Shown here in pieces: positions 4,532-24,041 of a DNA stretch of 29,227 nt. The stretch is from an uncultured Oligoflexia bacterium (GTDB taxonomy: Bacteria; Bdellovibrionota; UBA1018; UBA6935). The DNA lies in the NCBI GenBank assembly GCA_964013565.1, contig CAXGWU010000036.1:1-29227 (forward strand). Reading direction: 5' to 3'. Made by a program: the position numbers and the translations under genes. Position 1 is the first letter of the stretch. Each line of letters starts with the position of its first letter. The notes beneath the pieces were generated by a model that saw only the letters and a list, made by a program, of their open reading frames with translations, had not been told where the DNA came from and made no database searches.

Positions 4532-5458
4532 ATGAATCTCGCTCAATTTACAGAACGTTGGTTGTCTGAGCTCAGGCAAAAGGGGAGGAGCTCGCATTCA
4601 CTAAGAGCCTATGAGCATGATTTAAATTCTTGGGTTCTTTTTTTAGAATCCAAACAAATTCAAACAGTTAAAGATCTGAATCAAATTGATCGGAAATTAA
4701 TTCGAACTTTCCTTTCAAATGAATTGGGTCATTGTGCATCTTCAACGCTCGCTCGAAAGGTATCGACCTTAAGACAATTTAGTCGTTGGTTACGAAGAAA
4801 TACCGATTTTGAACGAGACTTAAGTTTATTGTGGGCCTCTCCCAGAGTACAAAAACCACTCCCTCGTTTTTTTGGAATTGAAGAAATGCTTAGTCTTCTT
4901 GATTTGATGGATGAGTCCACATTTTTAGGAGTCCGAGATCGAGCTCTTTTTGAAGTGATGTATGGTGCTGGTCTTCGAGTTGATGAAGTGACTGGTTTAT
5001 TTTGGGATTCTATAGATTTTAAAAAAGGGTGGGTAAGAGTAATCGGTAAAGGGACGAAAGAGAGAGAGGTTCCTATTGGTTCCTCCGCTTTAGAAGCACT
5101 TGGCTCCTATCTGAATTGGTTAAAAAAATTAGAACAAGTGAATTTAAAAGTTTTTTTAAATTATAGATATAGCCCTCTTTCAAATAGGAGTGTTGCTCGA
5201 ATTCTTTCTAAATACCTTTTAAAGTTATATTCTTTATCTGATGAAATAGGTCTATTACCTAAAAATTTGAGTCCTCATTCGATTCGGCATAGTTTTGCTA
5301 CACATTTACTTGCAGGAGGGGCAGATTTAAAAGTCATTCAACAAATGTTAGGGCATTCACAATTATCAACCACCCAGCGCTATACTCATGTAGATTTAGG
5401 AACATTGGTAGACGAGTATCATCAAGCCCATCCTTTAGAGGATCTTTTGAAGAAATAA
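4532..5458 (+). CDS. xerC: Tyrosine recombinase XerC-like
   Basis: 308 aa; catalytic-region signatures GAGLRVDEV, HSIRHSFATHLLAGGADLKVIQQMLGHSQLSTTQRYTHV. Confidence 0.9.
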   Translation: MNLAQFTERWLSELRQKGRSSHSLRAYEHDLNSWVLFLESKQIQTVKDLNQIDRKLIRTFLSNELGHCASSTLARKVSTLRQFSRWLRRNTDFERDLSLLWASPRVQKPLPRFFGIEEMLSLLDLMDESTFLGVRDRALFEVMYGAGLRVDEVTGLFWDSIDFKKGWVRVIGKGTKEREVPIGSSALEALGSYLNWLKKLEQVNLKVFLNYRYSPLSNRSVARILSKYLLKLYSLSDEIGLLPKNLSPHSIRHSFATHLLAGGADLKVIQQMLGHSQLSTTQRYTHVDLGTLVDEYHQAHPLEDLLKK

Positions 5459-7090: not shown

Positions 7091-8557
7091 ATGAATAAAT
7101 CATTTATCTCTTTTTTATTTTTCTTTGGACTCGTTTTATTTGCCCACTCATTTTCATTAGGGCTTTCAGATGATGAAGCCTATTATTGGATTCTGTCACG
7201 ACAGTGGTCTTTAGGCAGTGAGTTTCACCCCCCCATGGTCGCCTGGTGGATTAAGATTGTGACTATGGTTTTTGGGGACCTTAGTGTGCGATTGCCGGCT
7301 ATTTTAACTTCTCTGTTTCTGGTCTGGGTTACTCGATTTTATGTACTCAATGAAGGGAAACCAGATCTTTTAAAGTTTTCTCATCAATGGATTTGGATAA
7401 GTTTACCTGGGCTTTTTGTGGGATCTTGGATGATGGTTCCTGATATTCCACTCTTTTTCTTTTGGGGAATTCTTCTTTTAGTTGGAAGAAAGTGGATCGA
7501 GCGTCGCTCTCTTTTACTTTTTTTTGTTATTCTTTTTTCATTTGCCGGGATGAATCTTTCCAAATTTTCTGGAGTTTTAATTCTACCTAGCCTTATTGCA
7601 TCATGGTTTTTTCTTTCTGACGAAACTCAGAGAGTTCGTACTACTTTTTATGGAGGGTTTGCCCTTTTCTTAGGCCTTATTTTTTCTTGGTCTATTATTA
7701 TTTATTGGAATTCAGCACATGAATGGATTGCTCTCAAATATCAGTTTATGGGGAGGCATGCGGGAGAGATCTCTTGGCTGAGGTATTTGAGGTTTTGGGG
7801 GATTCAGATCATTTTAGCTGGTCCTGTTCTTTTTCTTTTTAGCTTAAAGTTACCTGTATTTTTTTTAAAAAAGAAAAACAAAGGAGCTCTTTATTTATTG
7901 TTTTTAGCTCTCCCGCCTTTAATTGTTTATTTTCTACAGCCTCTTCGAGCAGAGTTTAAGCTTCATTGGACATTAGCTGCTTGGATTCCGTTATGGATTC
8001 TTTGGATTTTGGAAAATATCTCTAATCGGAGATGGTTTCGTATTCAAAATAGTTTTTCTGCTTTAGTAATTGTTTTTGTTTTTTTATCGGCTCATCTTCC
8101 GATTCTTCCGTTTTTTCATAAAGCTTTTTCAGATCGTCCTTGGAATCCTTTGTGGGACGTAACGGGTGATTTAGAAGGGTGGAGAGAGCTTCCTTCTCAT
8201 TTAAAGTCTTTAGGATATCAATTAGATGAGTGGGGCTTTGCAGGGAATCGTTATCAGACCGCATCACAAGCTGGATTTGCTTTGAGAGAGTATGGAGTTT
8301 CAGTTTGGGTGCCTCGGAAAGAAGGTGCACGATTTGATTGGTCAATTCCTCGTATTGTTAAAGATCCTGTATTTGATTTAACTCTTTTGAAAAAGACTCT
8401 CTTTTTTGGAGATCACCGATATAATGCTCCACCTTCTTTTTTGAAGGCCAGTTGTGAATCTATTCCATCTTTAGAGGTGAATCGGGGTTCCTATCGATCT
8501 AAAACGATTCTTATCTGGAAGTGTTTACCGAAGCTTTCTTTAGATGATCATTCCTAA
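7091..8557 (+). CDS. ArnT/PMT (GT39/GT83-like) integral-membrane glycosyltransferase
   Basis: 488 aa polytopic protein; SDDEAYYWILSRQWSLGSEFHPPMVAWWIKI near the N-terminus is the typical acidic motif-containing loop of the family. Confidence 0.85.
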   Translation: MNKSFISFLFFFGLVLFAHSFSLGLSDDEAYYWILSRQWSLGSEFHPPMVAWWIKIVTMVFGDLSVRLPAILTSLFLVWVTRFYVLNEGKPDLLKFSHQWIWISLPGLFVGSWMMVPDIPLFFFWGILLLVGRKWIERRSLLLFFVILFSFAGMNLSKFSGVLILPSLIASWFFLSDETQRVRTTFYGGFALFLGLIFSWSIIIYWNSAHEWIALKYQFMGRHAGEISWLRYLRFWGIQIILAGPVLFLFSLKLPVFFLKKKNKGALYLLFLALPPLIVYFLQPLRAEFKLHWTLAAWIPLWILWILENISNRRWFRIQNSFSALVIVFVFLSAHLPILPFFHKAFSDRPWNPLWDVTGDLEGWRELPSHLKSLGYQLDEWGFAGNRYQTASQAGFALREYGVSVWVPRKEGARFDWSIPRIVKDPVFDLTLLKKTLFFGDHRYNAPPSFLKASCESIPSLEVNRGSYRSKTILIWKCLPKLSLDDHS

Positions 8558-9350
8558 TCCAAGCGGTTTGATTTCGCCCAGAAAATGTGTTTTTAATTTG
8601 AAACCACCGATCTTTAAATGAAATCACTTCAAATGTAGTGCTGTCTTTGATTCGACTAATGACAGGATAGTGAAGTCCAGGTCCAGAACGCATTTTTACA
8701 TTTGGAACTGTTGTTTTTACAAAAAAACGGTTTTCAATTTTAGGGGATATCCTTTGTTTTTTTATTTTATTTTCAGTGTTTCTTTTAGAGCTTGCTTGTG
8801 TAGATTGAATTGTTTGAATGGGAGTATTTTTTTTGACTTCAGGAGTGAGTTCTACTCGACTCATTGAAATTTGTGGTTTTTCTGATTCAACTCTAAAAAT
8901 AAGATAAGCTCCGCTGATGATGGTCAAAGCAGCAGAAATACTGAGTGATACAGTGATGATATTTTTTTGGACCCAAGTTTGAATTTGATCTGTTTTTGAT
9001 GATTGCATGATATTAATTTCTGGTAATGGTTCAGGAAAAGAAGATTCTTTAGAAACAGACTTTACTTCTTTTTGGATTTTGGGTTTATTCATCCTTTCTC
9101 TAAAAGGAGGAGGGGTAGCTTTTGAAATTGTCCTTTTAGGTTGAGCAGGCTTTATTGTCGGTTGTGTACGAATTTCATGAAATTCCATGGGTTGTTTTAA
9201 ATTTGAATTTACTTTAATTGCCGTATGATTGGATTGTTTTATACATGAAAATCCGCCACATTGAATACAGCGTGTGAAAGTCCACCCATTAGGACTTTGT
9301 TTTTTTTCTACATGCATTTCACTTGAACAGTGAGGACAAGTCACTTTCAT
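8511..9350 (-). CDS. Zinc-ribbon / single-TM / bacterial SH3 domain protein
   Basis: N-terminal CPHCSSEMHV…CIQCGG ribbon, TM IITVSLSISAALTIISGAYLIF, C-terminal VPNVKMRSGPGLHYPVISRIKDSTTFEVISFKDRWFQI…AWIRNDHL SH3-like repeat. RBS AAGGAGT before ATG. Confidence 0.75.
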   Translation of the reverse strand: MKVTCPHCSSEMHVEKKQSPNGWTFTRCIQCGGFSCIKQSNHTAIKVNSNLKQPMEFHEIRTQPTIKPAQPKRTISKATPPPFRERMNKPKIQKEVKSVSKESSFPEPLPEINIMQSSKTDQIQTWVQKNIITVSLSISAALTIISGAYLIFRVESEKPQISMSRVELTPEVKKNTPIQTIQSTQASSKRNTENKIKKQRISPKIENRFFVKTTVPNVKMRSGPGLHYPVISRIKDSTTFEVISFKDRWFQIKNTFSGRNQTAWIRNDHLKKASVNTSR

Positions 9351-9424: not shown

Positions 9425-10261
9425 TTAATTTCCGGAAGGAGTGGAGCTGATCTCTCTTTTTGGTTTAGAGGTCGAGTCAATGTTTTGAAGGGAAGGAGAG
9501 TCCCATGGAATATTTTCTACATGAGGTTCTAATACTTTTAAAACAACTCTACGATTTGTATCTAAAGCATTGATATCCCAACTTCCATCAGGATTACGTT
9601 CTTTTTTTTGTGGTCGAGTGGATCCATATCCAATTGCAAGAAGTTGAGTGGGATCAAATCCGGTGTCAATAAAACGTCTAAGTACTTGTGATGCGCGTGC
9701 TCCAGAAAGCTCCCAGTTCGATGGATAGATCCCGCTGAGAATAGGTCGACCATCGGTATGGCCTTCAACTACAATTTTATATTTTTTTTGTTCAGCGTCT
9801 TGACGTCCGAGTAGAGCGATCGTGAGCTTTTTTAAAATGTCCATTCCCTTTGGTTTGATGTTTGCACTCAAAGTATCAAAAAAGAACGTAGAATGAAAAG
9901 TGATCGTCGTTCCATTTGGATCTGAAAAAACAACAGCATCTTTTTCAATGCCTGCTTCTTGAATCACTTGTGATACAAATTTAGCAGTTTGTTCTCCCGC
10001 GGATTCATAATCTCCACCAAAGTGTTTAGCTAATCCTTCCTTTACTTTTTCATATCTAGGTGTATCAAAATTAGCTGTACTCATCATCATAATAAAAAAT
10101 GCACAAAGGAGTGTCATCAGGTCAGCGTATGAAGTTAACCAGATGGCTTCGTCCCCGTCCTCTCCTTTTCTCAAAGACTTCACTTCAGGTTTTTGGTGAG
10201 CGAGTTCTTCTTGAGTTTGTCGTGCTTTTTTTAAAAACTTTGAAATTGACAAGTTAAGCAA
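9425..10261 (-). CDS. motB: MotB/OmpA-like stator protein
   Basis: TM with conserved Asp (AIWLTSYADLMTLLCAFFIMM) and OmpA-like peptidoglycan-binding C-terminus (VVEGHTDGRP…NWELSGARASQVLR). Confidence 0.85.
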   Translation of the reverse strand: MLNLSISKFLKKARQTQEELAHQKPEVKSLRKGEDGDEAIWLTSYADLMTLLCAFFIMMMSTANFDTPRYEKVKEGLAKHFGGDYESAGEQTAKFVSQVIQEAGIEKDAVVFSDPNGTTITFHSTFFFDTLSANIKPKGMDILKKLTIALLGRQDAEQKKYKIVVEGHTDGRPILSGIYPSNWELSGARASQVLRRFIDTGFDPTQLLAIGYGSTRPQKKERNPDGSWDINALDTNRRVVLKVLEPHVENIPWDSPSLQNIDSTSKPKREISSTPSGN

Positions 10262-11036
10262 CCCTTCTCTCTATTCTTTCTTCTGGCATAAGAAAAGAAT
10301 TTAAACTTTCTTTCATTGCAAGTGGATTCACTTGTTTTTTTAATAAAATTGCACCTTCGACCATCATTCGTCGAAGAGCAATTTCTTCTTCAGTTCTTTC
10401 AGTCAAATTTTCTGCTATAGGAAGAAAAACTAAGTTAGCAATAGAGATTCCATAAAGTGTTCCAACTAGTCCAATAGACATTGCTGGCCCGATGAGTTTC
10501 TCACTCCCAGGTTTCCCTAGTTGTTGAAGAAGAGCGATCATTCCTAATGTGGTTGCAAGTAGTCCAAATGCAGGAGGAAATTTTCCAATGCTTTTGAACA
10601 TGTTTGCTTCACTCATATACTTTTTTTCAACTGTTTTTAATCTTTCTTCTAGAACTGAACGTATTTCTTGTTCTGTAAGAACTCCTGCTGCTACAAGAGA
10701 AACTCCTTCTTTTAAAAAAGGGTGACGAATACTGGGAATTGAATCTTTCAATGCGGATAGACCCAGTGAAGCTTTTTTATTAAGGTCTAGTAAGGTTTGA
10801 ACTGATTCTTGATAATTTACTTTATTTTTTCCTAAAACTCTAAAAAAGAAAATTTTTAAGAGAGAAATAATTTTTTTTATTGGAAAACTAATACTTGCTG
10901 CTGCTAGCGTTCCTCCACAAACAATGACTATCCCGTGAAAATTTAAGAAAAACATCAAGTCCATCCCGCTCTCTGCGAGAGATGCGACCATGACTCCAAC
11001 ACCTAGTAATACACCAAAAAGAGATGAAAAATTCAT
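10254..11036 (-). CDS. motA: MotA-like stator protein
   Basis: Track start at 11120 overlaps the upstream gene by 83 nt; ATG at 11036 (MNFSSLFGVLLGVGVMVASLAESG) preceded by GGAGG is a better start. Four hydrophobic segments, MotA-type GGTLAAASISFP and PAFGLLATTLGMIALLQ. Confidence 0.87.
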   Translation of the reverse strand: MNFSSLFGVLLGVGVMVASLAESGMDLMFFLNFHGIVIVCGGTLAAASISFPIKKIISLLKIFFFRVLGKNKVNYQESVQTLLDLNKKASLGLSALKDSIPSIRHPFLKEGVSLVAAGVLTEQEIRSVLEERLKTVEKKYMSEANMFKSIGKFPPAFGLLATTLGMIALLQQLGKPGSEKLIGPAMSIGLVGTLYGISIANLVFLPIAENLTERTEEEIALRRMMVEGAILLKKQVNPLAMKESLNSFLMPEERIERRVA

Positions 11037-11037
11037 T

Positions 11038-11556
11038 TTATGCAGCCTCCTCGGAAGAGCCTTTTGTAGAAAGAGCTGTTTTCCAAAGTTGATATTGTGT
11101 AATGACGTAACTGTCATCAAGTTCCTTAAGTCGATTCACCACATGGTGAGCACAACTCTCGTAAAATTTAAGTTTTCTTTCGGTCGACTTGTTTAAAAAA
11201 GCCTGAAATGAATATTTTGAAATATAGAATAAAAGACATTCAGTGGTTGCTCGTACTGTTGCAGATCGAGGTCCGTCATCAATAAGTGAGAATTCCCCAA
11301 AAAAACCACCTCGATCAATTTGACCAACGTCGTAGGTATTTCCTGAGACTCGATTTGATTTGAATACGCCTACAGAACCATCCATGACAAGATACATTCC
11401 CCAACTCATTTCACCTTCGATTACAATGTTAGATAGAGCTTCGTACTGAATGAGTTTTCCTATTCCTAAAATTTCTTGGATTTCAGTTTCTGAAAAAATT
11501 TGCAAAAGACTGACTTCCTTAAGAGATTCAACTGACGGTTGTTTTTTGTTTACCAT
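11038..11556 (-). CDS. Cyclic-nucleotide-binding domain protein
   Basis: 172 aa; …VIEGEMSWGMYLVMDGSVGVF…DRGGFFGEFSLIDDGPRSATVRATTECLLFYIS matches the cNMP-binding fold (G-E-S/L…PRSATV). Confidence 0.85.
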   Translation of the reverse strand: MVNKKQPSVESLKEVSLLQIFSETEIQEILGIGKLIQYEALSNIVIEGEMSWGMYLVMDGSVGVFKSNRVSGNTYDVGQIDRGGFFGEFSLIDDGPRSATVRATTECLLFYISKYSFQAFLNKSTERKLKFYESCAHHVVNRLKELDDSYVITQYQLWKTALSTKGSSEEAA

Positions 11557-13871
11557 CCTGCCACCTTTTTAAATTCTTCATTGTTATTTGGATTTTGGCC
11601 TTCTGGTGTTAGATCTGCAGCAAACATTTTTTCATTAGTTTCAATGAGATTGATACTGCCATCGTTAGCCATTACTTTTACTCTGTTAAGTATTTTTCTT
11701 GAAATATTTTGATACTCATCTCTTGATACGTTATCAAGACCTTCAATTTCTTCTTGAAGTTCAATGACAAGCTCTTGAGGTGATTTAGCAAAAATCGCGT
11801 TTCGTACATGTTCGGTTGAACCTTTTAAGAAACGAATTAACTCTTCATGTTTTAATCCAAGAACGACTTCAAGAAGGTGGTTATCTCTAAGGTATGCAAG
11901 GGTGTCTACAGAAACTAACTTACTTTTTACTGCGTGAGCACTATCCGGATTTTTTGTATTTAGCATGCTCATTACACTTTTCTGAGTCTGGATATTTGCT
12001 CTTTCAAGAAGACTTACAAGTACGTCGGATCCTGGAAGTGCTTCTGTATTTAACTTAGGATTGTCACTTCTTTTCCGTTTTAACGCTACGGCTACGTTAT
12101 AGATATAGTCTTTTGGAAGGTGATCAATTCTTGAAAGCTCAGTAAGAAGTCGCATTTTGGTATCTTCATCCATTTGAGCATAGATTGCTGTTCTTTTCAT
12201 TGGGTCAGTCTGAGTAAGAACAATAGCTTTTACTGTTATTGATTCATTTCGAATCAACTCAAGAACTTGAAGTTTGTCCATTTCTGCAAGAAAGTCAAAT
12301 AGACTGGTGGATCGATGACCTAAGATAAACATTTTTGCTGCAATGGTTCTGTTGTGGAGACTTTTTAAAAGTTCTAGCTTATCGTTATCATCCATTTCTA
12401 CAGGGTTTTTAGCGTAATACTCCATCAAGTCTGATAGATCAGTTTGTAAGCTCGGGTCACGAAGCATGTCGACTACAATTGCTTCTCCAAAAAGTTCAAT
12501 GTAGCAAGCTGTAACTTCCACTCCTTCTTCCGTTAATATTCGGGAAAAAACTTGTTTCGCTACTCTCGGTTGTTCACCAAAAATCTGAGTTAATTCTGAT
12601 TGTAGTCTTTCAATTTCGTAACGAATTGCAACGGAATTGATATTCTCTAAACGCGAAGGAGGTTTAGCAAATGACTCATTTGTTTCTGGGGATTGATTTT
12701 TTCCATCTTGAATAAATCTGTGAATATTTTCATTAGGTCCTCTTTTAGGTCGATAGGTAGCCAGAGCAATGAAAATAAGAAGAGAGAGTACTGAAACTGC
12801 AAAAATAAGTGAGTAGATTTCAAATTCTTGAATTTGAGATTGAACAATATCTCCATCTTCAACACGCTCTATTTTTTCATAGTGTACAAACTTCTCACTT
12901 TTATTTTCTTTATTTTCATTTGTTTGATTGAGTTGAGAATTTGAATTAAACTTTTTTGAGCTGGTAAATAAATCCTGTTTGTTTTTAAAAAATTCTGAAT
13001 TGGACTGAGATTTAGAATCTTTACTTGTAGAAGAAGCAAGTCCTCGTCGTCCAGATACATTTACTCCAGAAGCAATTCCGTTAGTAAGTCCTTGAGGAAA
13101 AGAAATGGATTTGTGATCTAGGTATACATTTTTTAGAAATCCTGTTTTTAATTTAGCCATTTCTAAAAGACCATACTGTTCCTCTGGAGAAAGACTAGAG
13201 TCTGTAAGAATAGTTCCTTCAATCCTATTGATTTTTACTGCAACATCACCATCTTGTACAAATTCACCAATAGAACCATATTGGGCTTCTTCGGGATTGA
13301 CGGGATCTACTTTAACGTCATAATCACCGAGAAGACAGTGCTGAGGACAGAAACGTCCAATTAAGTCAGATAGGGCACTGGTAAATTCTTTACTTATTCT
13401 TTCTTTAATTTCGGCTACTTTTCTGGATGATGCAATGGGTTGAGGAAAGTGTGCTATTTTTGTTTCAATTTCTACTGGATATGGCAAGTCCTCAAAGTGT
13501 TGATCTATTAATTCAAGGAGTTTCTTTTTTGAGTTCGGTCCAACTAAATCACCAATGAGTAAATTTACTTTGACTTCACTTACTTCAATTTCTGGATTTC
13601 CACCATTTTGAAGATTAATGTCAAATCCTGGTTCGAGTTCATCAGGAACAGCAACAGTGACCTGAGCTTGTGAAGAAAGGAGTTTACATTGATCGTCACA
13701 GTATTTTTTTAAAATAGGTTCTATTACTTTTTTTACTTCAGAAATAGACTTTCTTTTGAGTTGGTCTGCATTTAAAGATGCACTTTGAGCAACTTTTGAT
13801 GTTCCCAAAATTATGATGAATAAAAATGACCATTGAGTTATTTTAATGAAGAAATTCCTTTTTCTTTTCAT
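11550..13871 (-). CDS. Membrane-anchored protein with FliG-like cytoplasmic region
   Basis: 773 aa: signal peptide, about 300-residue extracytoplasmic part with duplicated C-x3-C-containing segment, polar linker, TM (IYSLIFAVSVLSLLIFIALATY), then FliG middle/C-like region (…LIRNESITVKAIVLTQTDP…; LLEVVLGLKHEELIRFLKGSTEHVRNAIFAKSPQELVIELQEEIE…). Confidence 0.75.
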   Translation of the reverse strand: MKRKRNFFIKITQWSFLFIIILGTSKVAQSASLNADQLKRKSISEVKKVIEPILKKYCDDQCKLLSSQAQVTVAVPDELEPGFDINLQNGGNPEIEVSEVKVNLLIGDLVGPNSKKKLLELIDQHFEDLPYPVEIETKIAHFPQPIASSRKVAEIKERISKEFTSALSDLIGRFCPQHCLLGDYDVKVDPVNPEEAQYGSIGEFVQDGDVAVKINRIEGTILTDSSLSPEEQYGLLEMAKLKTGFLKNVYLDHKSISFPQGLTNGIASGVNVSGRRGLASSTSKDSKSQSNSEFFKNKQDLFTSSKKFNSNSQLNQTNENKENKSEKFVHYEKIERVEDGDIVQSQIQEFEIYSLIFAVSVLSLLIFIALATYRPKRGPNENIHRFIQDGKNQSPETNESFAKPPSRLENINSVAIRYEIERLQSELTQIFGEQPRVAKQVFSRILTEEGVEVTACYIELFGEAIVVDMLRDPSLQTDLSDLMEYYAKNPVEMDDNDKLELLKSLHNRTIAAKMFILGHRSTSLFDFLAEMDKLQVLELIRNESITVKAIVLTQTDPMKRTAIYAQMDEDTKMRLLTELSRIDHLPKDYIYNVAVALKRKRSDNPKLNTEALPGSDVLVSLLERANIQTQKSVMSMLNTKNPDSAHAVKSKLVSVDTLAYLRDNHLLEVVLGLKHEELIRFLKGSTEHVRNAIFAKSPQELVIELQEEIEGLDNVSRDEYQNISRKILNRVKVMANDGSINLIETNEKMFAADLTPEGQNPNNNEEFKKVAGW

Positions 13872-13873
13872 TT

Positions 13874-14593
13874 TTAATTACTCCCTCTTAAGGTTAATTT
13901 TTTCTTTTTTGATTGTATAAATTTTTTGAGAGACTCATTATTAGGGTCAAATTCAACAGACTGTTCCCAAGATCGCATTGCTAATTCGGAGTAGCCAAGA
14001 CGTTCTAATAGCGTTCCTCTCATTTCATAAAGTTTGGGGTCAGTTGGGTAGCTTTTAATCATTTCATCTGTTTCTAGTAATCCAACTTCATATCGTTTGT
14101 TTCTATAGAGTTGCTTGATGTAGTCGATTTGAGCTAGATAGCTCGACTGACGTTTAGGTTGAGCTTCAGGAGGTGTAACAAGGCCTAGTTCATTTTCAAT
14201 ATTACTTCTCTTCCAGTCATTCTCTGGAATGCCTTCTGGAAGTTTTTCGATGATTTCGTGATCTGCAGTAGAGGGTTTTATTTTTTTATAGTCAGGGTTA
14301 ATTTGATTTTTTTGATTGGATGCAAGAGTCCTTTGTCCTACTAGAGTAGCATCCATTGGAACTACAAATTCAGTCATTTGATTTGTTTCTCTGGGAAGTT
14401 CAACTTCAACTGACTTCTGTCCTTCTTTTGATCTCAATATGATATTTGTCTCTTTTTCACCTTCGAAGAATGAATTACCAAAAGGATTTTCGATCATTGG
14501 AATGGTTTCAGTCTTTGTAGACGCACAAGAATTTCCAATAAGAATAATGAGAAGAGAAGTGATGCCTTTATTTAGATATTTCATCGATTTCAT
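13874..14593 (-). CDS. TPR-containing lipoprotein
   Basis: Lipobox-like LIGNSC after hydrophobic leader; C-terminal TPR-like helices (MRGTLLERLGYSELAMRSWEQSVEFDPNNESLKKF). Confidence 0.75.
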   Translation of the reverse strand: MKSMKYLNKGITSLLIILIGNSCASTKTETIPMIENPFGNSFFEGEKETNIILRSKEGQKSVEVELPRETNQMTEFVVPMDATLVGQRTLASNQKNQINPDYKKIKPSTADHEIIEKLPEGIPENDWKRSNIENELGLVTPPEAQPKRQSSYLAQIDYIKQLYRNKRYEVGLLETDEMIKSYPTDPKLYEMRGTLLERLGYSELAMRSWEQSVEFDPNNESLKKFIQSKKKKLTLRGSN

Positions 14594-14595
14594 CC

Positions 14596-15798
14596 TTAAA
14601 ATAGTGCGCTTACGCCCACGCCTCCTTCAATTCCAGTGAGGGTTCCTACAGCAGTTCCATCTAAAAATGCAGTTGCTGGTGGTCGGTACCCAATATTTGC
14701 ATTGACTCCCCAGTGTTTTCCAAGTCTCCATTCATATCCACCGCGAATCAATCCACCTAAAAACCCTGATGTGTAAGTTCCACCAATTCCAACAAATATA
14801 CTTCCTCGAATTTTGTTATAGTTTTCTAAATTTCCGATGAGATTCCAGGCGTGCATAAAAAGAAGAGAAAGATTAAATCCGTTCCACACATCAACAGTGG
14901 ATGTATCTGTAGAAGTGCTAAAGAAAGAGCTTGCACTTCTAAAGTAGTCTAATTCAAATCCAACTTCTTTTTTTCGATTATCGTAGCGTTCCATCATGCG
15001 GAAACCAAGACCAATAGTTCCGTTGTATTCGTTTAAATTTCTTTCAAACATATAATAGAGGATCACTCGGTACTGTAAAGTGGGTTCATAATCCGCTTGA
15101 TGTCTTGCTTGATCAACTTGTGAGTAATCAACTCCACGTCTAAAAGCAGCTGCACGAGAAGTTTCTGAATTATATGTTCTAGACCATATAATTGTTTGGT
15201 TTTCTGCATCAGTGATATAGAGAGAGAGTAAGAGTCCTGTGGGCAAATAGGCAAACGCAATATCTAAAAAATGTTTCACAGAGTGTTTTTTTGCAAGTCG
15301 AGCGAGTTGCTCAGGGTGACTTTCTGGAGACGAAATAACAACGTTATTTCCACTCAGACGAGCTGTTCTTGATCGACATGGAATACATTGAATCATTCTG
15401 GTTTGTGAGTTTTTTAGAATTCGCTCAGTTGTGAGTAACTCTAAATGACTCTTAAAGGATTCTGGAACATTTTCACTGGTGACGACATTTCGAACGGATA
15501 GATCAGTTAAGCCCCTTACATCGCCACTTTTGACATCATACTCAAAATCAGAAAGTACATCTTCAAGGACCTGGTAAAAACTTCTTTTCTTTTCGTCATC
15601 TTGTTCTTCGTTAGAAGAAATGAGCTTAGACTTCGTAGTTGGATCAGGAGTGATTTCTTTGTTCTCTGGTGATTCTTCTGCAAAAGTAGAGGTACTTGTT
15701 GTGAACAAGACGAGGAGAATTATCTTTCCCAAAAACTGAAAGGGGAGAGTCACTCGCTTTTTAATGAGTTTATCTGTTTTGTGGGTTTTTATATTCAT
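14596..15798 (-). CDS. Outer-membrane beta-barrel candidate, first gene of the motor-like operon
   Basis: Likely start ATG 15798 (track ORF begins 15843): signal peptide …FLGKIILLVLFTTSTSTFAEES; C-terminal alternating/glycine-rich strands ending in …GVGVSALF. Confidence 0.6.
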   Translation of the reverse strand: MNIKTHKTDKLIKKRVTLPFQFLGKIILLVLFTTSTSTFAEESPENKEITPDPTTKSKLISSNEEQDDEKKRSFYQVLEDVLSDFEYDVKSGDVRGLTDLSVRNVVTSENVPESFKSHLELLTTERILKNSQTRMIQCIPCRSRTARLSGNNVVISSPESHPEQLARLAKKHSVKHFLDIAFAYLPTGLLLSLYITDAENQTIIWSRTYNSETSRAAAFRRGVDYSQVDQARHQADYEPTLQYRVILYYMFERNLNEYNGTIGLGFRMMERYDNRKKEVGFELDYFRSASSFFSTSTDTSTVDVWNGFNLSLLFMHAWNLIGNLENYNKIRGSIFVGIGGTYTSGFLGGLIRGGYEWRLGKHWGVNANIGYRPPATAFLDGTAVGTLTGIEGGVGVSALF

Positions 15799-15830
15799 AG
15801 TGGTATAAACGATTCCTTCCTCTAGATGAC

Positions 15831-15857
15831 TTTTCGGACACATCCCCTGTCTTTTTA
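15831..15857 (-). promoter_or_regulatory. Sigma-28 (FliA)-like promoter candidate for the OMP-lipoprotein-FliG-like-cNMP-MotAB operon
   Basis: Minus strand TAAAAAGA-N11-TCCGAAAA compared with TAAAGTTT-N11-GCCGATAA, ending 32 nt upstream of ATG 15798. Confidence 0.45.
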
Positions 15858-15922
15858 ATTATTTTTCGTTTTTTTTCATTTTTTGTTTCATAAGGTGAAA
15901 AATTTGCCGATAGGTAGGTGAA

Positions 15923-18283: not shown

Positions 18284-19117
18284 ATGGGTATGCGTGTAAA
18301 TACAAATGTTCAGTCGATTGCGGCTCAACGGACGTTGGAAAAAAATAATATTTCTCAGCAAAAATCAATTGAGAAACTAGCAGCAGGTACTCGAATTGTT
18401 CGAGCGGCCGACGATGCAGCTGGTTTAGCAATTTCTGAGAGAATGAGAGCTAACATTGGTTCGATTCGTCAGAACGCAAGAAACGCTCAAGACGGAATCT
18501 CAATGATTCAGGTTGCTGAAGGATCTTTTAATGAAATTAATAACGTTTTAGTGCGTTTTAGAGAGCTTGCTGTTCAAAGTGCCTCTGACACTATTGGTGA
18601 TAAAGAGCGATCTTACATTGATAAAGAGGTTCAGCAATTGAAACAAGAGGTTGATCGAATCGCAAATGGTACTGAGTTTAATGGAAAAAATCTATTAAAT
18701 GGAAGTGGTGAGGTTCTACAGATTCAAGTAGGTCCGATGAATGATCCAGAGCTCGATCGATTTTATTTGGATACGTCTAAGACGAATTCAACGACTGATG
18801 CTTTAGGTCTTGCAGATTTCAATACGCTTTCAAGAGAAGCTTCCCAAGAGTCTCTTGCAGCAATTGATAACGCAATTGATATGGTTGTAGAAAATCGTTC
18901 TGATCTAGGTGCTCAACAAAATAGACTTGAGTCTACCATCAGAAACTTAAAAATCTATGATGAGAACTTATCAGCTGCGAGAAGTCGAATCTATGATGTC
19001 GATATTGCAAGTGAGACTGCTGAATTGACTCGTTCAAATATCTTAACTTCTGCAGGTGTGTCGGTTCTCAGTCAAGCAAATCAAAATAGTATGAGAGCGT
19101 TACAGCTTCTAGGATAA
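18284..19117 (+). CDS. fliC: Flagellin 1
   Basis: 277 aa, MGMRVNTNVQSIAAQRTLEKNN N-terminus and ANQNSMRALQLL C-terminus typical of short flagellins; RBS TTAGGAGGAA. Confidence 0.95.
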   Translation: MGMRVNTNVQSIAAQRTLEKNNISQQKSIEKLAAGTRIVRAADDAAGLAISERMRANIGSIRQNARNAQDGISMIQVAEGSFNEINNVLVRFRELAVQSASDTIGDKERSYIDKEVQQLKQEVDRIANGTEFNGKNLLNGSGEVLQIQVGPMNDPELDRFYLDTSKTNSTTDALGLADFNTLSREASQESLAAIDNAIDMVVENRSDLGAQQNRLESTIRNLKIYDENLSAARSRIYDVDIASETAELTRSNILTSAGVSVLSQANQNSMRALQLLG

Positions 19118-19514: not shown

Positions 19515-20348
19515 ATGGGCTTGAGAGTAAATACAAATATTGCATCGTTAGCAGCACAAAGAGTTGTGCGAAATCGAAGTTTAGAGCAAGAAAAATCTTA
19601 TCAGAGATTGGCAACTGGGCGAAGAATTGTCAATGCAGGTGACGACGCAGCCGGTTTATCTATTAGTGAAAATCTGCGTGCACAGATTCGTTCAATGCAT
19701 CAGGCAGAAAGAAATGCGAATGACGGAATTTCTTTTGTTCAGGTTGCAGAAGGTGGCCTTAATGAAATAGCAAATATGCTCGTTCGTTTAAGAGAGCTTT
19801 CTATTCAGGCAGCTTCAGATACTGTCGGTGACCGTGAACGAGGTTTTATTCAAACGGAAGTAGAAAGCATTGTTGGTGAGATCGATCGCATCGCAAATGT
19901 AACCTCATTTAATGGAACAAATTTGTTAAATGGAGAAAGCGACAAAGGTGATCTTGATATTCAAGTGGGAATTCGAAATAAGGAACCCGACCGAGTCAAT
20001 TTATCAATAGACGAGAATGATGTGACTACGTCTGCTCTAGGAATTGATGGGATTGAGGCTTCAAGTATTGGCTCTGCAAGAGACTCTTTGGATTCAATTG
20101 ATAATGCAATTGATCGAGTGAGTGGATCAAGAGCTCGATTAGGTGCTGCACAAAATAAACTCAGATCAAGAGTGAATAATCTTTCTATTAATAGACAGAA
20201 TTTAGAAGCAGCAAGATCAAGAGTGATTGATACTGATATTGCAGATGAAAGTGCGAAATTGGTCACTCATAATATTCTAAAAAGTACTGGAATTTCAGTT
20301 TTGGCTCAGGCAAACGTCGCGCCAATGAAAGCTTTGGAATTAATCTAA
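19515..20348 (+). CDS. fliC: Flagellin 2
   Basis: 277 aa, MGLRVNTNIASLAAQRVVRNRS…; C-terminal SILAQ/NVAPMKALELI-type end; paralog of flagellin 1. Confidence 0.95.
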   Translation: MGLRVNTNIASLAAQRVVRNRSLEQEKSYQRLATGRRIVNAGDDAAGLSISENLRAQIRSMHQAERNANDGISFVQVAEGGLNEIANMLVRLRELSIQAASDTVGDRERGFIQTEVESIVGEIDRIANVTSFNGTNLLNGESDKGDLDIQVGIRNKEPDRVNLSIDENDVTTSALGIDGIEASSIGSARDSLDSIDNAIDRVSGSRARLGAAQNKLRSRVNNLSINRQNLEAARSRVIDTDIADESAKLVTHNILKSTGISVLAQANVAPMKALELI

Positions 20349-23207: not shown

Positions 23208-23609
23208 ATGAGCAATGGATATGGAGCATATAAGCAAACAGCCGTAATGACAGCGAGTCCCGTTCAAATTTTATTAATGCTTTACGAGGCTGCCATTAAA
23301 TATGTCAAAAAAGCATCGATCGCAATTGATAAAGAGGATATGAAAATCAAAGGTGAATCAATAATCAAGGCACATGACATTGTGATCGAATTAACGACTT
23401 CTTTAGATCATGAAAAAGGTGGAAAAGTTGCTGAAGATTTAGAAGCCCTGTACAATTTTATGACAGAGAAGCTCGTAAGCGCTAATCTGAATAATAGCAA
23501 GGAAGATTTAGCTGCTGTTCAAAAATCTCTTGAAACTTTACTGGAAGGCTGGAGAGGTGCAGCAGAAAAAATAGCTAAAGGGATAGCCGATCAAGGAACG
23601 AATGGTTAG
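23208..23609 (+). CDS. fliS: Flagellin export chaperone FliS
   Basis: 133 aa; YKQTAVMTASPVQILLMLYEAAIKYVKKA typical of FliS. Confidence 0.93.
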   Translation: MSNGYGAYKQTAVMTASPVQILLMLYEAAIKYVKKASIAIDKEDMKIKGESIIKAHDIVIELTTSLDHEKGGKVAEDLEALYNFMTEKLVSANLNNSKEDLAAVQKSLETLLEGWRGAAEKIAKGIADQGTNG

Positions 23610-23612
23610 AGT

Positions 23613-24041
23613 ATGAATATCGTTGAACTCGTAGTACAGAAAAATAAACTTTTAAGAAAGTTTAGAGATTTAACTGTCCACTTTATTAATACACCACTGG
23701 ATCCTCAGTTAGTACAGCTTATACATTTACAAAATAAACGAGATTCTGTGATTAAAGCATGTGAAATTGTTGATGATCAGATCAATCGAAAATTAAAAGA
23801 AATAGAAAAACTAAAATTATCTGAATCTGATCGATTGCATTTAAAGTCTGAATTTGAAGAAAAAGAAAGAATTGTACAAGAAATAAAAGTTTTAGATGAA
23901 AAAGTAATTCAAATGATTCGAGAGGAACAAGATAAGGTTTCTTTAGAAATGACTAAAACTAAAGAAAAAACATCAAAAATGAATAAATTTAAAAGTAAAA
24001 ATGAAAAAGATCGAGGTCGGGAGTTAGATCAACAAGTATGA
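23613..24041 (+). CDS. Coiled-coil protein in FliT-like position
   Basis: 142 aa, highly charged helical; follows fliS by 3 nt. Confidence 0.5.
   Translation: MNIVELVVQKNKLLRKFRDLTVHFINTPLDPQLVQLIHLQNKRDSVIKACEIVDDQINRKLKEIEKLKLSESDRLHLKSEFEEKERIVQEIKVLDEKVIQMIREEQDKVSLEMTKTKEKTSKMNKFKSKNEKDRGRELDQQV

What the first reader, a model, noticed from the sequence alone, without database searches (positions are those of the whole stretch)
11550..13871. 773-aa protein: extracytoplasmic region + TM + degenerate FliG middle/C-terminal domains
The C-terminal half follows the FliG plan: …DFLAEMDKLQVLELIRNESITVKAIVLTQTDPMKRTAIYAQMDEDTKMRLLTELSRIDHLP (middle-domain-like) and DTLAYLRDNHLLEVVLGLKHEELIRFLKGSTEHVRNAIFAKSPQELVIELQEEIE (torque-helix-like). 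The usual EHPQ motif appears as ESIT, so it has diverged from a standard switch protein. The N-terminal signal peptide and TM make it look like a fused FliF-like + FliG-like rotor or a MotA-contacting anchor.
Basis: partly seen in the sequence, partly recalled or inferred. Interest (0 to 1): 0.8.

Follow-up and report, generated by a model that had tools for sequence, protein, structure and literature searches.

The report
Membrane-anchored FliF/FliG-like protein with own stator
This gene encodes one protein that joins a flagellar-ring-like outer part, a membrane anchor and a complete flagellar rotor (FliG-like) inner part. It sits in a conserved operon with its own MotA/MotB proton motor and two outer-envelope proteins, so it looks like an undescribed envelope machine built from flagellar motor parts.

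Summary
ORF 11550-13871 (-) encodes a 773-aa protein with a signal peptide and two periplasmic alpha-beta-beta-alpha-beta modules whose best fold matches are the FliF MS-ring. A low-complexity linker, one TM helix and a cytoplasmic FliG-like region follow (Pfam FliG_M and FliG_C above gathering score; C-terminal domain superposes on T. maritima FliG-C at 1.8 A).

It is not the organism's normal FliF or FliG. It scores far below the FliG equivalog cut-off, lacks EHPQR and MFxF, and has no sequence-level FliF match. A genome that carries the family (FG-1) also has a canonical fliE-fliF-fliG-fliH cluster.

In 80 Bdellovibrionota genomes the gene lies in a tight operon: OM-type protein, TPR lipoprotein, this protein, (cNMP-binding protein), flagellar-type MotA, MotB. 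A distant one-module sister family in high-GC bacteria keeps the same five-gene core in a different order. No paper found describes either family.

Best reading (about 0.5): it is the force-receiving ring subunit of a dedicated MotAB stator in an envelope-spanning complex without a type III export apparatus. Rivals are a flagellar-motor accessory ring or a non-rotating stator anchor. The closest precedent is the chlamydial FliF-FliG fusion. I rate it a new variant of a known kind, of high interest.

The parts
11550..13871 (-). Whole gene E: 773-aa FliF-like/FliG-like membrane protein
   Evidence: ORF; Pfam FliG_M and FliG_C; more than 120 full-length homologues at about 50% identity; AF2 model with pLDDT 74
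13782..13871 (-). Signal peptide or N-terminal anchor (aa 1-30: KRKR, hydrophobic core, VAQS/AS)
   Evidence: Read directly from the sequence; the same pattern occurs in homologues
13452..13796 (-). Periplasmic module 1 (aa 26-140), alpha-beta-beta-alpha-beta, with invariant C58xxxC62 and P81-G-F83
   Evidence: AF2 secondary structure; invariant columns; retained in sister family 2
13104..13433 (-). Periplasmic module 2 (aa 147-256), alpha-beta-beta-alpha-beta, with invariant C175xxxC179, N192, E195, Y198
   Evidence: AF2 model with pLDDT 84.6; the two modules together match FliF RBM2+RBM3 chains 7bk0_B and 6scn_A
12855..13088 (-). Disordered Ser/Asn-rich periplasmic linker (aa 262-339), ending in the invariant EKIERVExGD motif (aa 332-341)
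   Evidence: pLDDT below 50; variable length and composition, with an invariant motif at its end
12747..12827 (-). Transmembrane helix (aa 349-375), followed by a positively charged cytoplasmic flank
   Evidence: Hydropathy scan; modelled helix 341-372
12312..12653 (-). Cytoplasmic helical region (aa 407-520), probably FliG_N-like plus the N-M helix
   Evidence: Foldseek alignments cover 315-320 columns of full-length FliG (3hjl, 8umx_B); PDB profile match reaches FliG residue 63; no Pfam FliG_N hit; conserved in family 2
12060..12269 (-). FliG middle domain (aa 535-604); EHPQ replaced by E543-S-I-T546, R581 kept
   Evidence: PF14841 32.7 bits; column counts
11646..11966 (-). FliG C-terminal domain (aa 636-742)
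   Evidence: PF01706 54.2 bits; 1qc7_B TM-score 0.83, rmsd 1.8 A
11721..11786 (-). Torque-helix equivalent (aa 696-717): K696, K/R699, D/E700, E704, E706, E/D707, E708, R717
   Evidence: Alignment to T. maritima and FG-1 FliG; conservation in 78 sequences
11038..11556 (-). Gene D: 172-aa stand-alone cyclic-nucleotide-binding protein; its start overlaps the stop of E
   Evidence: PF00027 58.4 bits; phosphate-binding cassette G87-E88...R97-S98-A99 invariant in 64 homologues; present in 63 of 80 loci and absent from one subclade
10254..11036 (-). Gene C: flagellar-type MotA (real start probably M29 of the ORF that begins at 11120)
   Evidence: PF01618; NCBIfam MotP/MotA/PomA 126-157 bits, below cut-offs; PDB C. 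sporogenes MotA E 2e-36, PomA 1e-25, aligned from M29; P182, P183, P234 invariant
9425..10261 (-). Gene B: MotB (plug, TM with invariant D47, OmpA-type peptidoglycan-binding domain)
   Evidence: PF13677 and PF00691; D47 present in 65 of 65
13874..14593 (-). Gene F: 239-aa lipoprotein with C-terminal TPR
   Evidence: Weak TPR hits; clear lipoboxes in homologues; present in 73 of 80 loci; homologous to family-2 g6, E 4e-18
14596..15843 (-). Gene G: 415-aa secreted protein with an N-terminal alpha/beta domain (invariant CxxC) and a C-terminal beta-rich half ending in an aromatic residue (outer-membrane-barrel-like)
   Evidence: Alignment A3; present in 68 of 80 loci; homologous to family-2 g5, E 2e-24; no Pfam or PDB sequence match
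8511..9350 (-). Gene A (possible member): Zn-ribbon, TM (aa 130-154), SH3_3 protein downstream of MotB
   Evidence: Pfam; hydropathy; found in 47 of 80 loci at only 20-38% identity
15923..16753 (+). Gene H (possible member): 276-aa lipoprotein transcribed divergently from the operon
   Evidence: Conserved position in 58 of 80 loci; lipobox in homologues; no family hit

Best explanation
Gene E encodes the force-receiving, probably ring-forming, subunit of a proton-driven envelope machine built from flagellar motor parts but separate from the flagellar basal body.

Shown: the protein is exported at its N-terminus, carries two FliF-type ring-building-like modules in the periplasm, crosses the inner membrane once, and exposes a complete FliG-like region with a conserved charged torque helix in the cytoplasm. 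It is co-transcribed, with overlapping or abutting reading frames, with a flagellar-type MotA/MotB stator whose ion-path residues are intact, with a lipoprotein carrying TPR repeats, and with an outer-membrane-type protein.

Inferred:
- The periplasmic modules oligomerise into a ring, as RBM domains do in FliF and SctJ.
- The MotA cytoplasmic domain pushes on the FliG_C-like domains, so ion flow through MotAB rotates or drives this ring in the inner membrane.
- Movement or force passes through the periplasmic modules, lipoprotein F and protein G to the outer membrane.
- The small cNMP-binding protein D gates the rotor-stator contact in response to cAMP or cGMP.

The output of the machine (surface movement, prey contact or invasion, envelope or sheath remodelling) is unknown.
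For: Architecture:
- FliG_M and FliG_C score above Pfam gathering scores.
- Foldseek matches full-length FliG (3hjl E 3e-8, 315 columns) and FliG-C (1qc7_B, TM-score 0.83, rmsd 1.8 A).
- The N-terminal two-module model matches the FliF MS-ring best (7bk0_B 3.6e-7, 6scn_A 2e-6, 8z5v_A).
- There is a single TM helix, and conserved periplasmic Cys pairs.

Stator link:
- MotA and MotB lie in the same operon in 68-70 of 80 loci from different species.
- The sister family, only 20-27% identical, keeps MotA, MotB, the FliG-like protein, the TPR protein and the G-like protein together in a different gene order. That argues for a functional unit rather than inherited synteny.
- The stator looks functional and flagellar-type: best PDB hits are flagellar MotA and PomA over the full length, and MotB D47 and MotA P182/P183/P234 are invariant.
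- The torque helix is under selection: the acidic pair at the E. coli D288/D289 positions (E/D707, E708) plus K696, E704 and R717 are conserved. MotA keeps an invariant basic pair K115-K116 and acidic D/E126 in the FliG-contact helix.

Separate from the flagellum:
- No FliM, FliN, export-gate or rod genes lie in the operon or within 10 kb in 80 loci, and no canonical FliG lies in any flank.
- FG-1, which carries the family, has a complete canonical flgBC-fliEFGHIJ...fliMNOPQR-flhBA cluster. Its FliG has EHPQ, MFVF and KRAADLLRED.
- Almost all products of the family-2 operon have signal peptides or lipoboxes, as expected for an envelope-spanning complex.

Regulation: protein D has an intact cNMP phosphate-binding cassette.
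Against: - No experiment or multimer model shows ring formation, MotA contact or rotation.
- FliF-likeness is fold-level only. The RBM fold is common, TM-scores are low (0.24-0.36) because domain orientations differ, and hhalign against FliF gives 2-3% probability.
- The canonical contact residues are not in register. The E. coli R281 position is acidic here. The MotA R90 and E98 positions are A117 and N/K/S/Q125, with the conserved charges one or two residues away.
- Flagellin, FliD and FliS genes lie 4.5-10 kb away in the window and in about 29 related loci, and flagellin abuts one family-2 operon. A flagellar role is therefore not excluded.
- Every organism with the system for which I have flagellar information is flagellated (window; FG-1).
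Confidence: 0.5

Rival explanations
1. Flagellar-motor accessory. Protein E forms an extra ring around the MS/C-ring of the polar sheathed flagellum of these bacteria. It recruits or positions a specialised set of stators (the co-encoded MotAB) through its FliG_C-like domains. Lipoprotein F and outer-membrane protein G tie the motor to the outer membrane or sheath, much as PflA/PflB/FlgP or MotX/MotY/FlgT scaffolds do in other high-torque motors.
For: - Two flagellin genes, FliD and FliS lie 4.5-10 kb from the operon. Flagellins are within 10 kb in about 29 of 80 loci and next to a family-2 operon.
- Carriers FG-1 and FG-2 have a thick, sheathed-type polar flagellum.
- The stator is of the flagellar type.
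- TPR proteins (PflA, PflB) and membrane-anchored FliG/MgtE-like ARM proteins (FlgY, FlbB, MotE) are known periplasmic motor accessories.
- A sigma-28-like -10 box is weakly enriched in the G/H intergenic region.
Against: - The operon is never inside a flagellar gene cluster in the 80 loci and 3 family-2 loci.
- A static FliG ring bound to MotA would block the rotating MotA pentamer rather than scaffold it. Known scaffolds bind MotB or PomB in the periplasm instead.
- No family member was seen in cultured B. bacteriovorus, whose motor has been imaged.
- Family 2 sits in an 11-gene operon of unknown secreted proteins, with no flagellar genes in three of four contigs.
- The sigma-28 control failed: the flagellin promoters themselves did not match the pattern.
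Confidence: 0.27
2. Non-rotating stator anchor or regulator. The FliG_C-like domain acts as a membrane-tethered decoy that holds the co-encoded MotAB units plugged and idle, or as a brake or clutch. It releases them to the flagellar rotor when the cNMP-binding protein senses a signal.
For: - A stand-alone cNMP-binding protein is encoded between E and MotA, with overlapping reading frames, and has an intact binding cassette.
- Second-messenger control at the MotA-FliG interface is established for YcgR/PilZ proteins (general knowledge; FlgX PilZ).
- The canonical charge register is shifted.
Against: - This does not explain the conserved periplasmic ring-type modules, the outer-membrane protein and the lipoprotein, all kept in two very distant families.
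- The cNMP gene is absent from a whole subclade and from family 2, while the five-gene core persists.
- A decoy would not need a full FliG N/M/C fold.
Confidence: 0.13
3. It is simply this lineage's FliF and FliG, naturally fused, forming the MS ring and the top of the C ring of the ordinary flagellum.
For: - Engineered Salmonella FliF-FliG fusions exist as solved structures (8z4d).
- JGI pipelines label homologues 'flagellar motor switch protein FliG'.
- The organism has flagellin, FliD and FliS.
Against: - TIGR00207 FliG scores 61.6 bits against a cut-off of 226.7.
- There is no PF01514 FliF hit.
- The EHPQR FliM-binding motif and the MFxF hinge are lost.
- It is only 18% identical to the canonical FliG of a genome from the same phylum.
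- FG-1 has both a canonical FliF (499 bits) and FliG (309.6 bits) plus a second weak FliG hit of 114.7 bits.
- It is not in fliE-fliF-fliG-fliH context.
Confidence: 0.03

Closest known systems
Flagellar MS-ring/C-ring pair FliF + FliG with MotAB stator (including the engineered Salmonella FliF-FliG fusion, PDB 8z4d/8z4g)
   Same: - Periplasmic RBM-type modules, a TM helix, and a cytoplasmic FliG fold with a C-terminal torque-helix bundle.
- An adjacent flagellar-type MotA/MotB with intact ion-path residues.
- An acidic pair kept at the E. coli D288/D289 positions.
   Different: - One natural polypeptide with only two RBM-like modules, short inserts where FliF has the beta-collar, and no sequence-level FliF match.
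- Apparently a cleavable signal peptide rather than an N-terminal TM.
- EHPQR and MFxF are lost, and the R281 position is acidic.
- No FliM, FliN, export gate or rod genes nearby. Instead it is co-encoded with an OM-type protein, a TPR lipoprotein and a cNMP-binding protein.
- It coexists with canonical FliF and FliG.
Chlamydiaceae FliF-FliG fusion protein (Bergeron 2016, PeerJ, PMC4768692)
   Same: A natural single chain with a signal sequence, two RBM-like periplasmic domains, a TM helix and a cytoplasmic FliG-homologous region, outside a complete flagellar system.
   Different: - The chlamydial protein is about 330 aa and carries only FliG_M-like sequence, with no torque-generating C-terminal domain described.
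- The paper describes Chlamydia as not thought to be flagellated; that Chlamydia lacks MotAB is from my own knowledge, not checked here.
- Here the full FliG N/M/C-like region and a dedicated stator are present.
- A sequence relationship between the two families was not tested, because I had no chlamydial sequence.
Second FliG paralogues in flagellated bacteria (e.g. spirochaete FliG1/FliG2; recalled from memory, not tested here)
   Same: An extra FliG-type protein beside the canonical switch protein.
   Different: Those paralogues are soluble, of FliG length, and have no periplasmic domain, TM helix or private stator operon.
E-ring proteins FlgY / FlbB / MotE (COG3334)
   Same: Membrane-anchored proteins with a FliG/MgtE_N-like ARM head that form a ring in flagellar motors. 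FG-1 encodes one in its flagellar cluster.
   Different: Their ARM-like head is periplasmic and lacks FliG_C and the torque helix. They are short and encoded inside flagellar clusters. Protein E has a cytoplasmic FliG-like part and its own MotAB.
Other stator-driven envelope machines: ExbBD-TonB, TolQR-TolA-Pal, AglRQS-Glt gliding complex, GldLM of the type IX secretion and gliding system, ZorAB
   Same: The concept is the same: a MotAB-family ion motor in the inner membrane energises a process at the outer membrane through an anchored transducer, with TPR proteins, lipoproteins and OM barrels as partners.
   Different: Those systems use the 'generic' (TolQ/ExbB-type or GldL) branch, and the transducer sits inside the stator. 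Here the stator is the flagellar branch with a torque-generating cytoplasmic domain, and the partner is FliG-like. PADLOC finds no defence-system match for E.

Membership tests
FliG, flagellar motor switch protein (TIGR00207; Pfam FliG_N/M/C) | FliG middle domain (PF14841) above gathering score | tested here: met
   32.7 bits against 25, aa 535-604
FliG, flagellar motor switch protein (TIGR00207; Pfam FliG_N/M/C) | FliG C-terminal domain (PF01706) above gathering score, with the matching fold | tested here: met
   54.2 bits against 23.3; 1qc7_B TM-score 0.83, rmsd 1.8 A
FliG, flagellar motor switch protein (TIGR00207; Pfam FliG_N/M/C) | FliG N-terminal domain that binds the FliF C-terminus | tested here: inconclusive
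   No Pfam FliG_N hit even at E<=10. However, Foldseek aligns 315-320 columns of full-length FliG, and the profile reaches FliG residue 63.
FliG, flagellar motor switch protein (TIGR00207; Pfam FliG_N/M/C) | Whole-protein equivalog score (TIGR00207 cut-off 226.7 bits) | tested here: not met
   61.6 bits
FliG, flagellar motor switch protein (TIGR00207; Pfam FliG_N/M/C) | EHPQR FliM-binding motif and MFxF hinge | tested here: not met
   E543-S-[LI]-T546 with R581 kept; MFxF replaced by L652-V-S-x, in 78 sequences. The canonical FG-1 FliG has EHPQ and MFVF.
FliG, flagellar motor switch protein (TIGR00207; Pfam FliG_N/M/C) | Charged torque-helix residues at E. coli R281, D288, D289, R297 | tested here: inconclusive
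   The acidic pair is kept (E/D707, E708). The R281 position is D/E700, with K/R699 beside it. The R297 position is S716, with R717 beside it.
FliG, flagellar motor switch protein (TIGR00207; Pfam FliG_N/M/C) | Soluble protein encoded in a fliE-fliF-fliG-fliH cluster | tested here: not met
   It is a membrane protein in an operon with an OM-type protein, a lipoprotein, a cNMP-binding protein and MotAB. FG-1 has a separate canonical cluster.
FliF / SctJ (YscJ_FliF, PF01514) ring-building inner-membrane proteins | Sequence match to PF01514 or to a FliF | tested here: not met
   No Pfam hit at E<=10; family HMM against FG-1 FliF gives 5 bits; hhalign probability 2-3%
FliF / SctJ (YscJ_FliF, PF01514) ring-building inner-membrane proteins | Tandem alpha-beta-beta-alpha-beta (RBM) folds in the periplasm between an N-terminal signal or TM and a C-terminal TM | tested here: met
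   AF2 secondary structure, pLDDT 84.6; best PDB matches are FliF MS-ring chains (E 3.6e-7, 2e-6, prob 1.00), then YscD; topology
FliF / SctJ (YscJ_FliF, PF01514) ring-building inner-membrane proteins | RBM3 beta-collar insertion | tested here: not met
   Only about 20-residue inserts lie between beta1 and beta2 of each module (aa 74-94 and 192-209)
FliF / SctJ (YscJ_FliF, PF01514) ring-building inner-membrane proteins | Assembly into a homo-oligomeric ring | not testable with these tools
   No multimer prediction or experiment was available
Flagellar stator MotA/MotB (for the adjacent genes C and B) | MotA_ExbB domain with four TM helices, a large cytoplasmic domain and conserved prolines; MotB plug, TM Asp and OmpA domain | tested here: met
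   Pfam; full-length alignment to flagellar MotA and PomA structures; P182/P183/P234 and D47 invariant
Flagellar stator MotA/MotB (for the adjacent genes C and B) | NCBIfam equivalog cut-offs for MotA/MotP/PomA; charged residues at the E. coli R90 and E98 positions | tested here: not met
   Best score 157 bits against a cut-off of 394. Positions G-3 and G+5 are A117 and N/K/S/Q125. The conserved charges are K115, K116 and D/E126.
Chlamydial FliF-FliG fusion | Signal sequence, two RBM-like domains, TM, and a cytoplasmic FliG-homologous region | tested here: met
   The same domain order is seen. Sequence homology to the chlamydial family was not tested.

The most novel reading that the evidence does not exclude
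The operon encodes an autonomous minimal rotary motor: a single-chain MS-ring/FliG rotor turned by its own flagellar-type stator, with no type III export apparatus, rod or filament. It couples to the outer membrane through a TPR lipoprotein and an OM protein, and in most members is gated by a cyclic nucleotide. It would be either a flagellar rotor-stator module repurposed for a new envelope function in predatory bacteria, or a surviving relative of a pre-flagellar rotor. Its presence in two deeply divergent families suggests an old and overlooked class of bacterial machine.
Probability: 0.3. Interest if true: 0.95.

Novelty: new variant of a known kind. Interest (0 to 1): 0.8.

Why it matters
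All flagellar-branch MotAB stators have been assumed to drive flagella, and FliG has been treated as a soluble switch protein tied to FliF.

A conserved operon pairs a flagellar-type stator with a membrane-anchored FliF/FliG-like chain and outer-membrane partners, with no export apparatus. If this is a working unit, the rotor-stator module can exist, and presumably work, outside the flagellum. That makes two long-standing questions testable. One is how the flagellar motor was assembled from simpler modules. The other is whether rotor-stator pairs were reused for other envelope tasks.

The system is also a concrete candidate for unexplained envelope mechanics in Bdellovibrio-like predators. It adds a possible cyclic-nucleotide input at a rotor-stator interface, which has so far been known mainly for c-di-GMP.

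Tried and rejected
- **Sequence link of the N-terminal part to FliF.** Pfam at E<=10, the family HMM against a Bdellovibrionota FliF and hhalign were all negative or insignificant. FliF-likeness is therefore claimed at fold level only.
- **Link to B. bacteriovorus HD100 motAB2 (Bd3020/Bd3021).** No family member from cultured Bdellovibrio appeared among homologues, GTDB loci or cluster look-ups. Nothing on the neighbouring genes turned up in papers or supplements. The published 'two FliG copies' are probably Bd3403 plus the Bd3319 entry listed as 'fliG' inside the fliP-flhA-type cluster, which I take to be a mislabel.
- **Anti-phage system (Zorya-like).** PADLOC gives nothing for E, G, F or MotA. 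It gives only generic MotB/ZorB and cNMP-domain hits, so this was rejected.
- **Residue covariation between MotA position 125 and FliG-like position 699.** No clear pattern emerged.
- **Sigma-28 and sigma-54 promoter scans upstream of the operon in 62 loci.** The result was weak and uninterpretable, because the flagellin controls did not match the consensus either.
- **Taxonomy of sister family 2.** Two homologue searches returned only unnamed metagenome proteins. The only hints are high GC and a sub-threshold OMP_myx_plus hit.
- **Look-up of the window protein's own contig.** It failed: the protein is not on record.
- **PDB profile search for protein G.** It found nothing.

Full report
**The observation.** The ORF exists exactly as described: 11550..13871 on the minus strand, ATG start, 773 aa. 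Pfam places a FliG middle domain at aa 535-604 (32.7 bits, gathering score 25). It places a FliG C-terminal domain at aa 636-742 (54.2 bits, gathering score 23.3). A profile of 28 family members finds FliG crystal structures by sequence alone (3ajc E 8e-13, 1lkv 3e-12, 3hjl 1.5e-11). It also finds the engineered Salmonella FliF-FliG fusion 8z4d. A hydropathy scan finds one strong TM segment, aa 349-375, followed by RPKRG. The N-terminus (MKRKRN..., hydrophobic core, VAQS/AS) reads as a signal peptide or anchor.

**Anatomy.** An AlphaFold2 model built on the family alignment (mean pLDDT 74), plus a separate model of aa 31-262 (pLDDT 84.6), give the following layout.
- Two periplasmic modules with the order helix-strand-strand-helix-strand (aa 26-140 and 147-256). 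[quoted passage not shown]
- A disordered Ser/Asn-rich linker (aa 262-339) ending in the invariant motif EKIERVExGD.
- The TM helix, then a short disordered cytoplasmic stretch.
- An all-helical region, aa 407-751.

*Fold matches, whole model.* Foldseek against the PDB returns full-length FliG first (3hjl E 3.3e-8; 8umx_B, 8wiw_3, 8vib_G; 315-320 aligned columns of 310-331-residue chains). Salmonella FliF MS-ring chains follow (7bk0_B 6.8e-4, 8zds_B, 8t8p_A, 6scn_A). The isolated FliG C-terminal domain 1qc7_B superposes at TM-score 0.83 and rmsd 1.8 A.

*Fold matches, N-terminal model.* Its best hits are FliF chains covering RBM2 plus RBM3 (7bk0_B 3.6e-7, 6scn_A 2.0e-6, 266-270 columns). RBM3-only chains come next (8z5v_A, 6scn_K, 6sd1_A, 7cg7_A), with YscD further down.

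*Limits of the FliF resemblance.* TM-scores are low because domain orientations differ. There is no sequence-level support either:
- no Pfam hit at E<=10;
- 5 bits against a Bdellovibrionota FliF;
- hhalign probability of 2-3%.

The FliF resemblance is therefore a fold-level statement only.

**Not the ordinary FliF or FliG.**
- The FliG equivalog model TIGR00207 gives 61.6 bits against a cut-off of 226.7.
- Across 78 family members the EHPQR motif is E-S-[LI]-T with the Arg retained. The MFxF hinge is L-V-S-x.
- No family member lies next to fliE, fliF, fliH, fliM or fliN in the 80 related loci, and no second FliG-type ORF lies in any 10-kb flank.
- Decisively, the annotated genome of magnetotactic Bdellovibrionota FG-1 (PMC13200544) carries the family (loci L064 and L065; FG-2 is L037). 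It also has a complete canonical flgB-flgC-fliE-fliF-fliG-fliH-fliI-fliJ...fliM-fliN-fliOPQR-flhBA cluster.
- In that genome FliF scores 499 bits and FliG 309.6 bits, and there is a second, weak FliG hit of 114.7 bits elsewhere.
- The canonical FG-1 FliG has EHPQ, MFVF and the torque helix KRAADLLREDL. It is 18% identical to the window protein over 234 residues.
- The window itself encodes two flagellins, FliD and FliS, so its organism is flagellated.

**Context.** On the minus strand the genes G (14596-15843), F (13874-14593), E, D (11038-11556), C (MotA) and B (MotB, 9425-10261) abut or overlap by a few bases.
- C aligns over its full length with flagellar MotA and PomA structures from its Met29 onward (C. 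sporogenes 6ysf/8ucs E 2e-36, PomA 1e-25). Its best NCBIfam scores are MotP, MotA and PomA models, all below their cut-offs.
- B has the MotB plug and an OmpA domain.
- In the homologues, MotB D47 and MotA P182/P183/P234 are invariant. These are the equivalents of the E. coli ion-path residues.
- D is a 172-aa stand-alone cyclic-nucleotide-binding domain with an invariant phosphate-binding cassette.
- F is a lipoprotein with C-terminal TPR repeats.
- G has a signal peptide, an N-terminal domain with an invariant CxxC, and a beta-rich C-terminal half ending in an aromatic residue, as outer-membrane barrels do.

A scan of one genome per GTDB species found 89 loci. The 80 retrieved are Bdellovibrionota MAGs, some with evidently wrong labels, plus the non-MAG FG-1 and FG-2 records. 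Gene presence in those loci is F 73, MotA 70, MotB 68, G 68 and D 63, always in the same order. D is missing from a roughly 40%-identity subclade.

**A second, distant family.** An exhaustive HMMER search of 1.84 billion representative proteins with the periplasmic part found only 142 proteins at E<=0.001. About 93 are family members of 720-990 aa. The rest are 540-620-aa proteins that match module 1 only and have weak MgtE_N and FliG_C hits at their C-termini.
- A profile-profile comparison of the two families gives 99.9% probability, E 8e-33 over 553 columns. It covers module 1, the TM region and the whole cytoplasmic region.
- Four contigs carry this second family (GC 0.54-0.61 in the three contigs whose DNA was retrieved). 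In all four the gene directly follows a MotA and a MotB with plug and OmpA domains.
- In the three long contigs it sits in a conserved 11-gene operon.
- BLAST and HMM comparisons show that the genes before MotA are homologues of G (E 2e-24) and F (E 4e-18).

The five-gene core (G, F, MotA, MotB, FliG-like) is thus kept together in two families that share only 20-27% identity and differ in gene order. That is hard to explain by inherited synteny, and it argues for one functional unit. Almost all other products of the family-2 operon carry signal peptides or lipoboxes. Two end in aromatic residues, and one gives a sub-threshold hit to a myxobacterial-type OM barrel model. This fits an envelope-spanning complex.

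**The rotor-stator interface.** Aligned to the T. maritima, FG-1 and (from memory) E. coli torque helices, the acidic pair at E. coli D288/D289 is conserved as E/D707-E708. K696, E704 and R717 are also conserved. The R281 position is D/E700, with K/R699 beside it. In MotA, the canonical R90 and E98 positions are A117 and N/K/S/Q125. These are three residues before and five after the conserved Gly120. K115-K116 are invariantly basic and residue 126 is invariantly acidic. A charged interface is therefore conserved on both partners, but in a shifted register. This is compatible with a co-evolved private rotor-stator pair. It does not prove contact, and a simple covariation test showed nothing.

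**Mechanism.**

*Shown:*
- the domain architecture and topology of E;
- the operon and its conservation in two families;
- intact stator and cNMP-binding residues;
- coexistence with canonical FliF and FliG.

*Inferred:*
- the periplasmic modules form a ring, as RBM domains do;
- MotA drives the FliG_C-like domains;
- force is passed to F and G at the outer membrane;
- D gates the interface.

I give about 0.5 to this reading: a self-contained MotAB-driven envelope machine separate from the basal body.

*Main rival (about 0.27): an accessory ring of the polar sheathed flagellar motor.* For it:
- flagellin, fliD and fliS lie 4.5-10 kb away in the window and in about 29 loci, and flagellin abuts one family-2 operon;
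- carriers have a thick flagellum;
- TPR and ARM-type motor accessories are known.

Against it, the operon always lies outside flagellar clusters, and a static FliG ring bound to MotA would be mechanically awkward.

*Minor rivals.* A non-rotating stator anchor or brake (about 0.13) does not explain the conserved periplasmic and outer-membrane parts. It also does not explain the absence of the cNMP gene from one subclade and from family 2. A natural FliF-FliG fusion serving as the ordinary rotor (about 0.03) is contradicted by FG-1.

**Comparison with what is known.** The closest precedent is the chlamydial FliF-FliG fusion described from sequence analysis (signal sequence, two RBM-like domains, TM, FliG_M-like tail; PMC4768692). 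As described there, that protein has only an M-domain-like cytoplasmic tail, with no FliG C-terminal domain. That Chlamydia also lacks MotAB is from my own knowledge. A 2025 survey of MotAB evolution treats the flagellar-type stator clade as flagellar and does not mention such partners. Full-text searches on FliG-like proteins with MotAB, non-flagellar stators, Bdellovibrio, and natural fusions found no description of this family. NCBI names the window protein (MBN22473.1, a marine MAG) 'hypothetical protein', and JGI pipelines call homologues 'FliG'. PADLOC finds no defence-system match.

**Verdict.** The protein fails membership as FliG (equivalog score, EHPQR, context) and as FliF (sequence), while resembling both in fold. 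I file it as a new variant of a known kind. The parts are flagellar rotor-stator parts in a new single-chain, export-apparatus-free arrangement, with outer-membrane partners and a cyclic-nucleotide sensor. The system is conserved across a phylum and has a deep sister family. Interest is 0.8. It rests on bioinformatic evidence only, and the function is not known.

Noticed in passing
window 18284-19117, 19515-20348, 21810-23198, 23208-23609 (+): Two flagellin genes, fliD and fliS lie 4.5-10 kb from the operon. A TPR protein (24038-25165) and a family-9 glycosyltransferase (25386-27179) follow. Flagellins are also within 10 kb in about 29 of 80 related loci.
   Followed up: partly
window 15905-15912 (+), upstream of gene H (15923): A sigma-28-like -10 box GCCGATAG sits in the G/H divergent intergenic region. 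Similar boxes occur upstream of 7 of 22 H and 10 of 62 G homologues (about 7% expected by chance). The flagellin controls did not match the consensus, so this is uninterpretable.
   Followed up: partly
window 13686-13700 and 13335-13349 (-) (E aa 58-62 and 175-179); G aa 153-156 (window 15376-15387): Invariant CxxxC pairs sit at the same structural position in both periplasmic modules of E, and an invariant CxxC is found in the periplasmic domain of G. They may be disulfides or a shared metal or redox site. Their role is unexplained.
   Followed up: no
window 11553-11570 (-) (E C-terminus, ...KKVAGW): After a variable linker, the extreme C-terminus of E is a conserved basic-hydrophobic tail ([KR][KR]V[AG], often ending GW). 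It is present whether or not the cNMP gene is present. It may be a docking or membrane-binding peptide.
   Followed up: partly
window 11037-11120 (-): The MotA ORF as listed starts 28 codons too early. All structural homologues align from Met29 (start 11036), which removes the 83-base overlap with the cNMP gene.
   Followed up: yes
L081 1126-13205, L082 1248-13274, L083 1278-13386: The sister family sits in a conserved 11-gene operon in high-GC bacteria. Six of its products (about 540, 215, 650, 305, 315 and 180 aa) have no Pfam or NCBIfam family above cut-off; the best is one sub-threshold OMP_myx_plus hit. Nearly all have signal peptides or lipoboxes. The host taxon is unknown.
   Followed up: partly
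L044, L047, L052, L053, L055-L057, L059, L060, L073, L078: A subclade about 40% identical to the window protein lacks the cNMP-binding gene between E and MotA, so the cyclic-nucleotide input is optional.
   Followed up: partly
L064 and L065 (Bdellovibrionota FG-1, two contigs): FG-1 has two copies of the gene, each cut at about aa 577 by a contig end and each preceded by its own G and F. This is either a real duplication or an assembly break at a repeat.
   Followed up: no
window 8511-9350 (-): Downstream of MotB lies a protein with an N-terminal MJ0042-type zinc ribbon, one TM helix and a C-terminal SH3_3 domain. It holds the same position in 47 of 80 loci but at only 20-38% identity. It may be a further component.
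   Followed up: partly
P0181, P0197, P0213 (912-986 aa): Some family members carry an extra N-terminal extension of about 170 residues, which in the one sequence read (P0181) is Asn/Ser-rich, before module 1.
   Followed up: no
window 4532-5458 (+): A XerC/XerD-type tyrosine recombinase (Phage_integrase plus SAM-like N domain) lies among housekeeping genes. I saw no sign that the operon lies on a mobile element.
   Followed up: no
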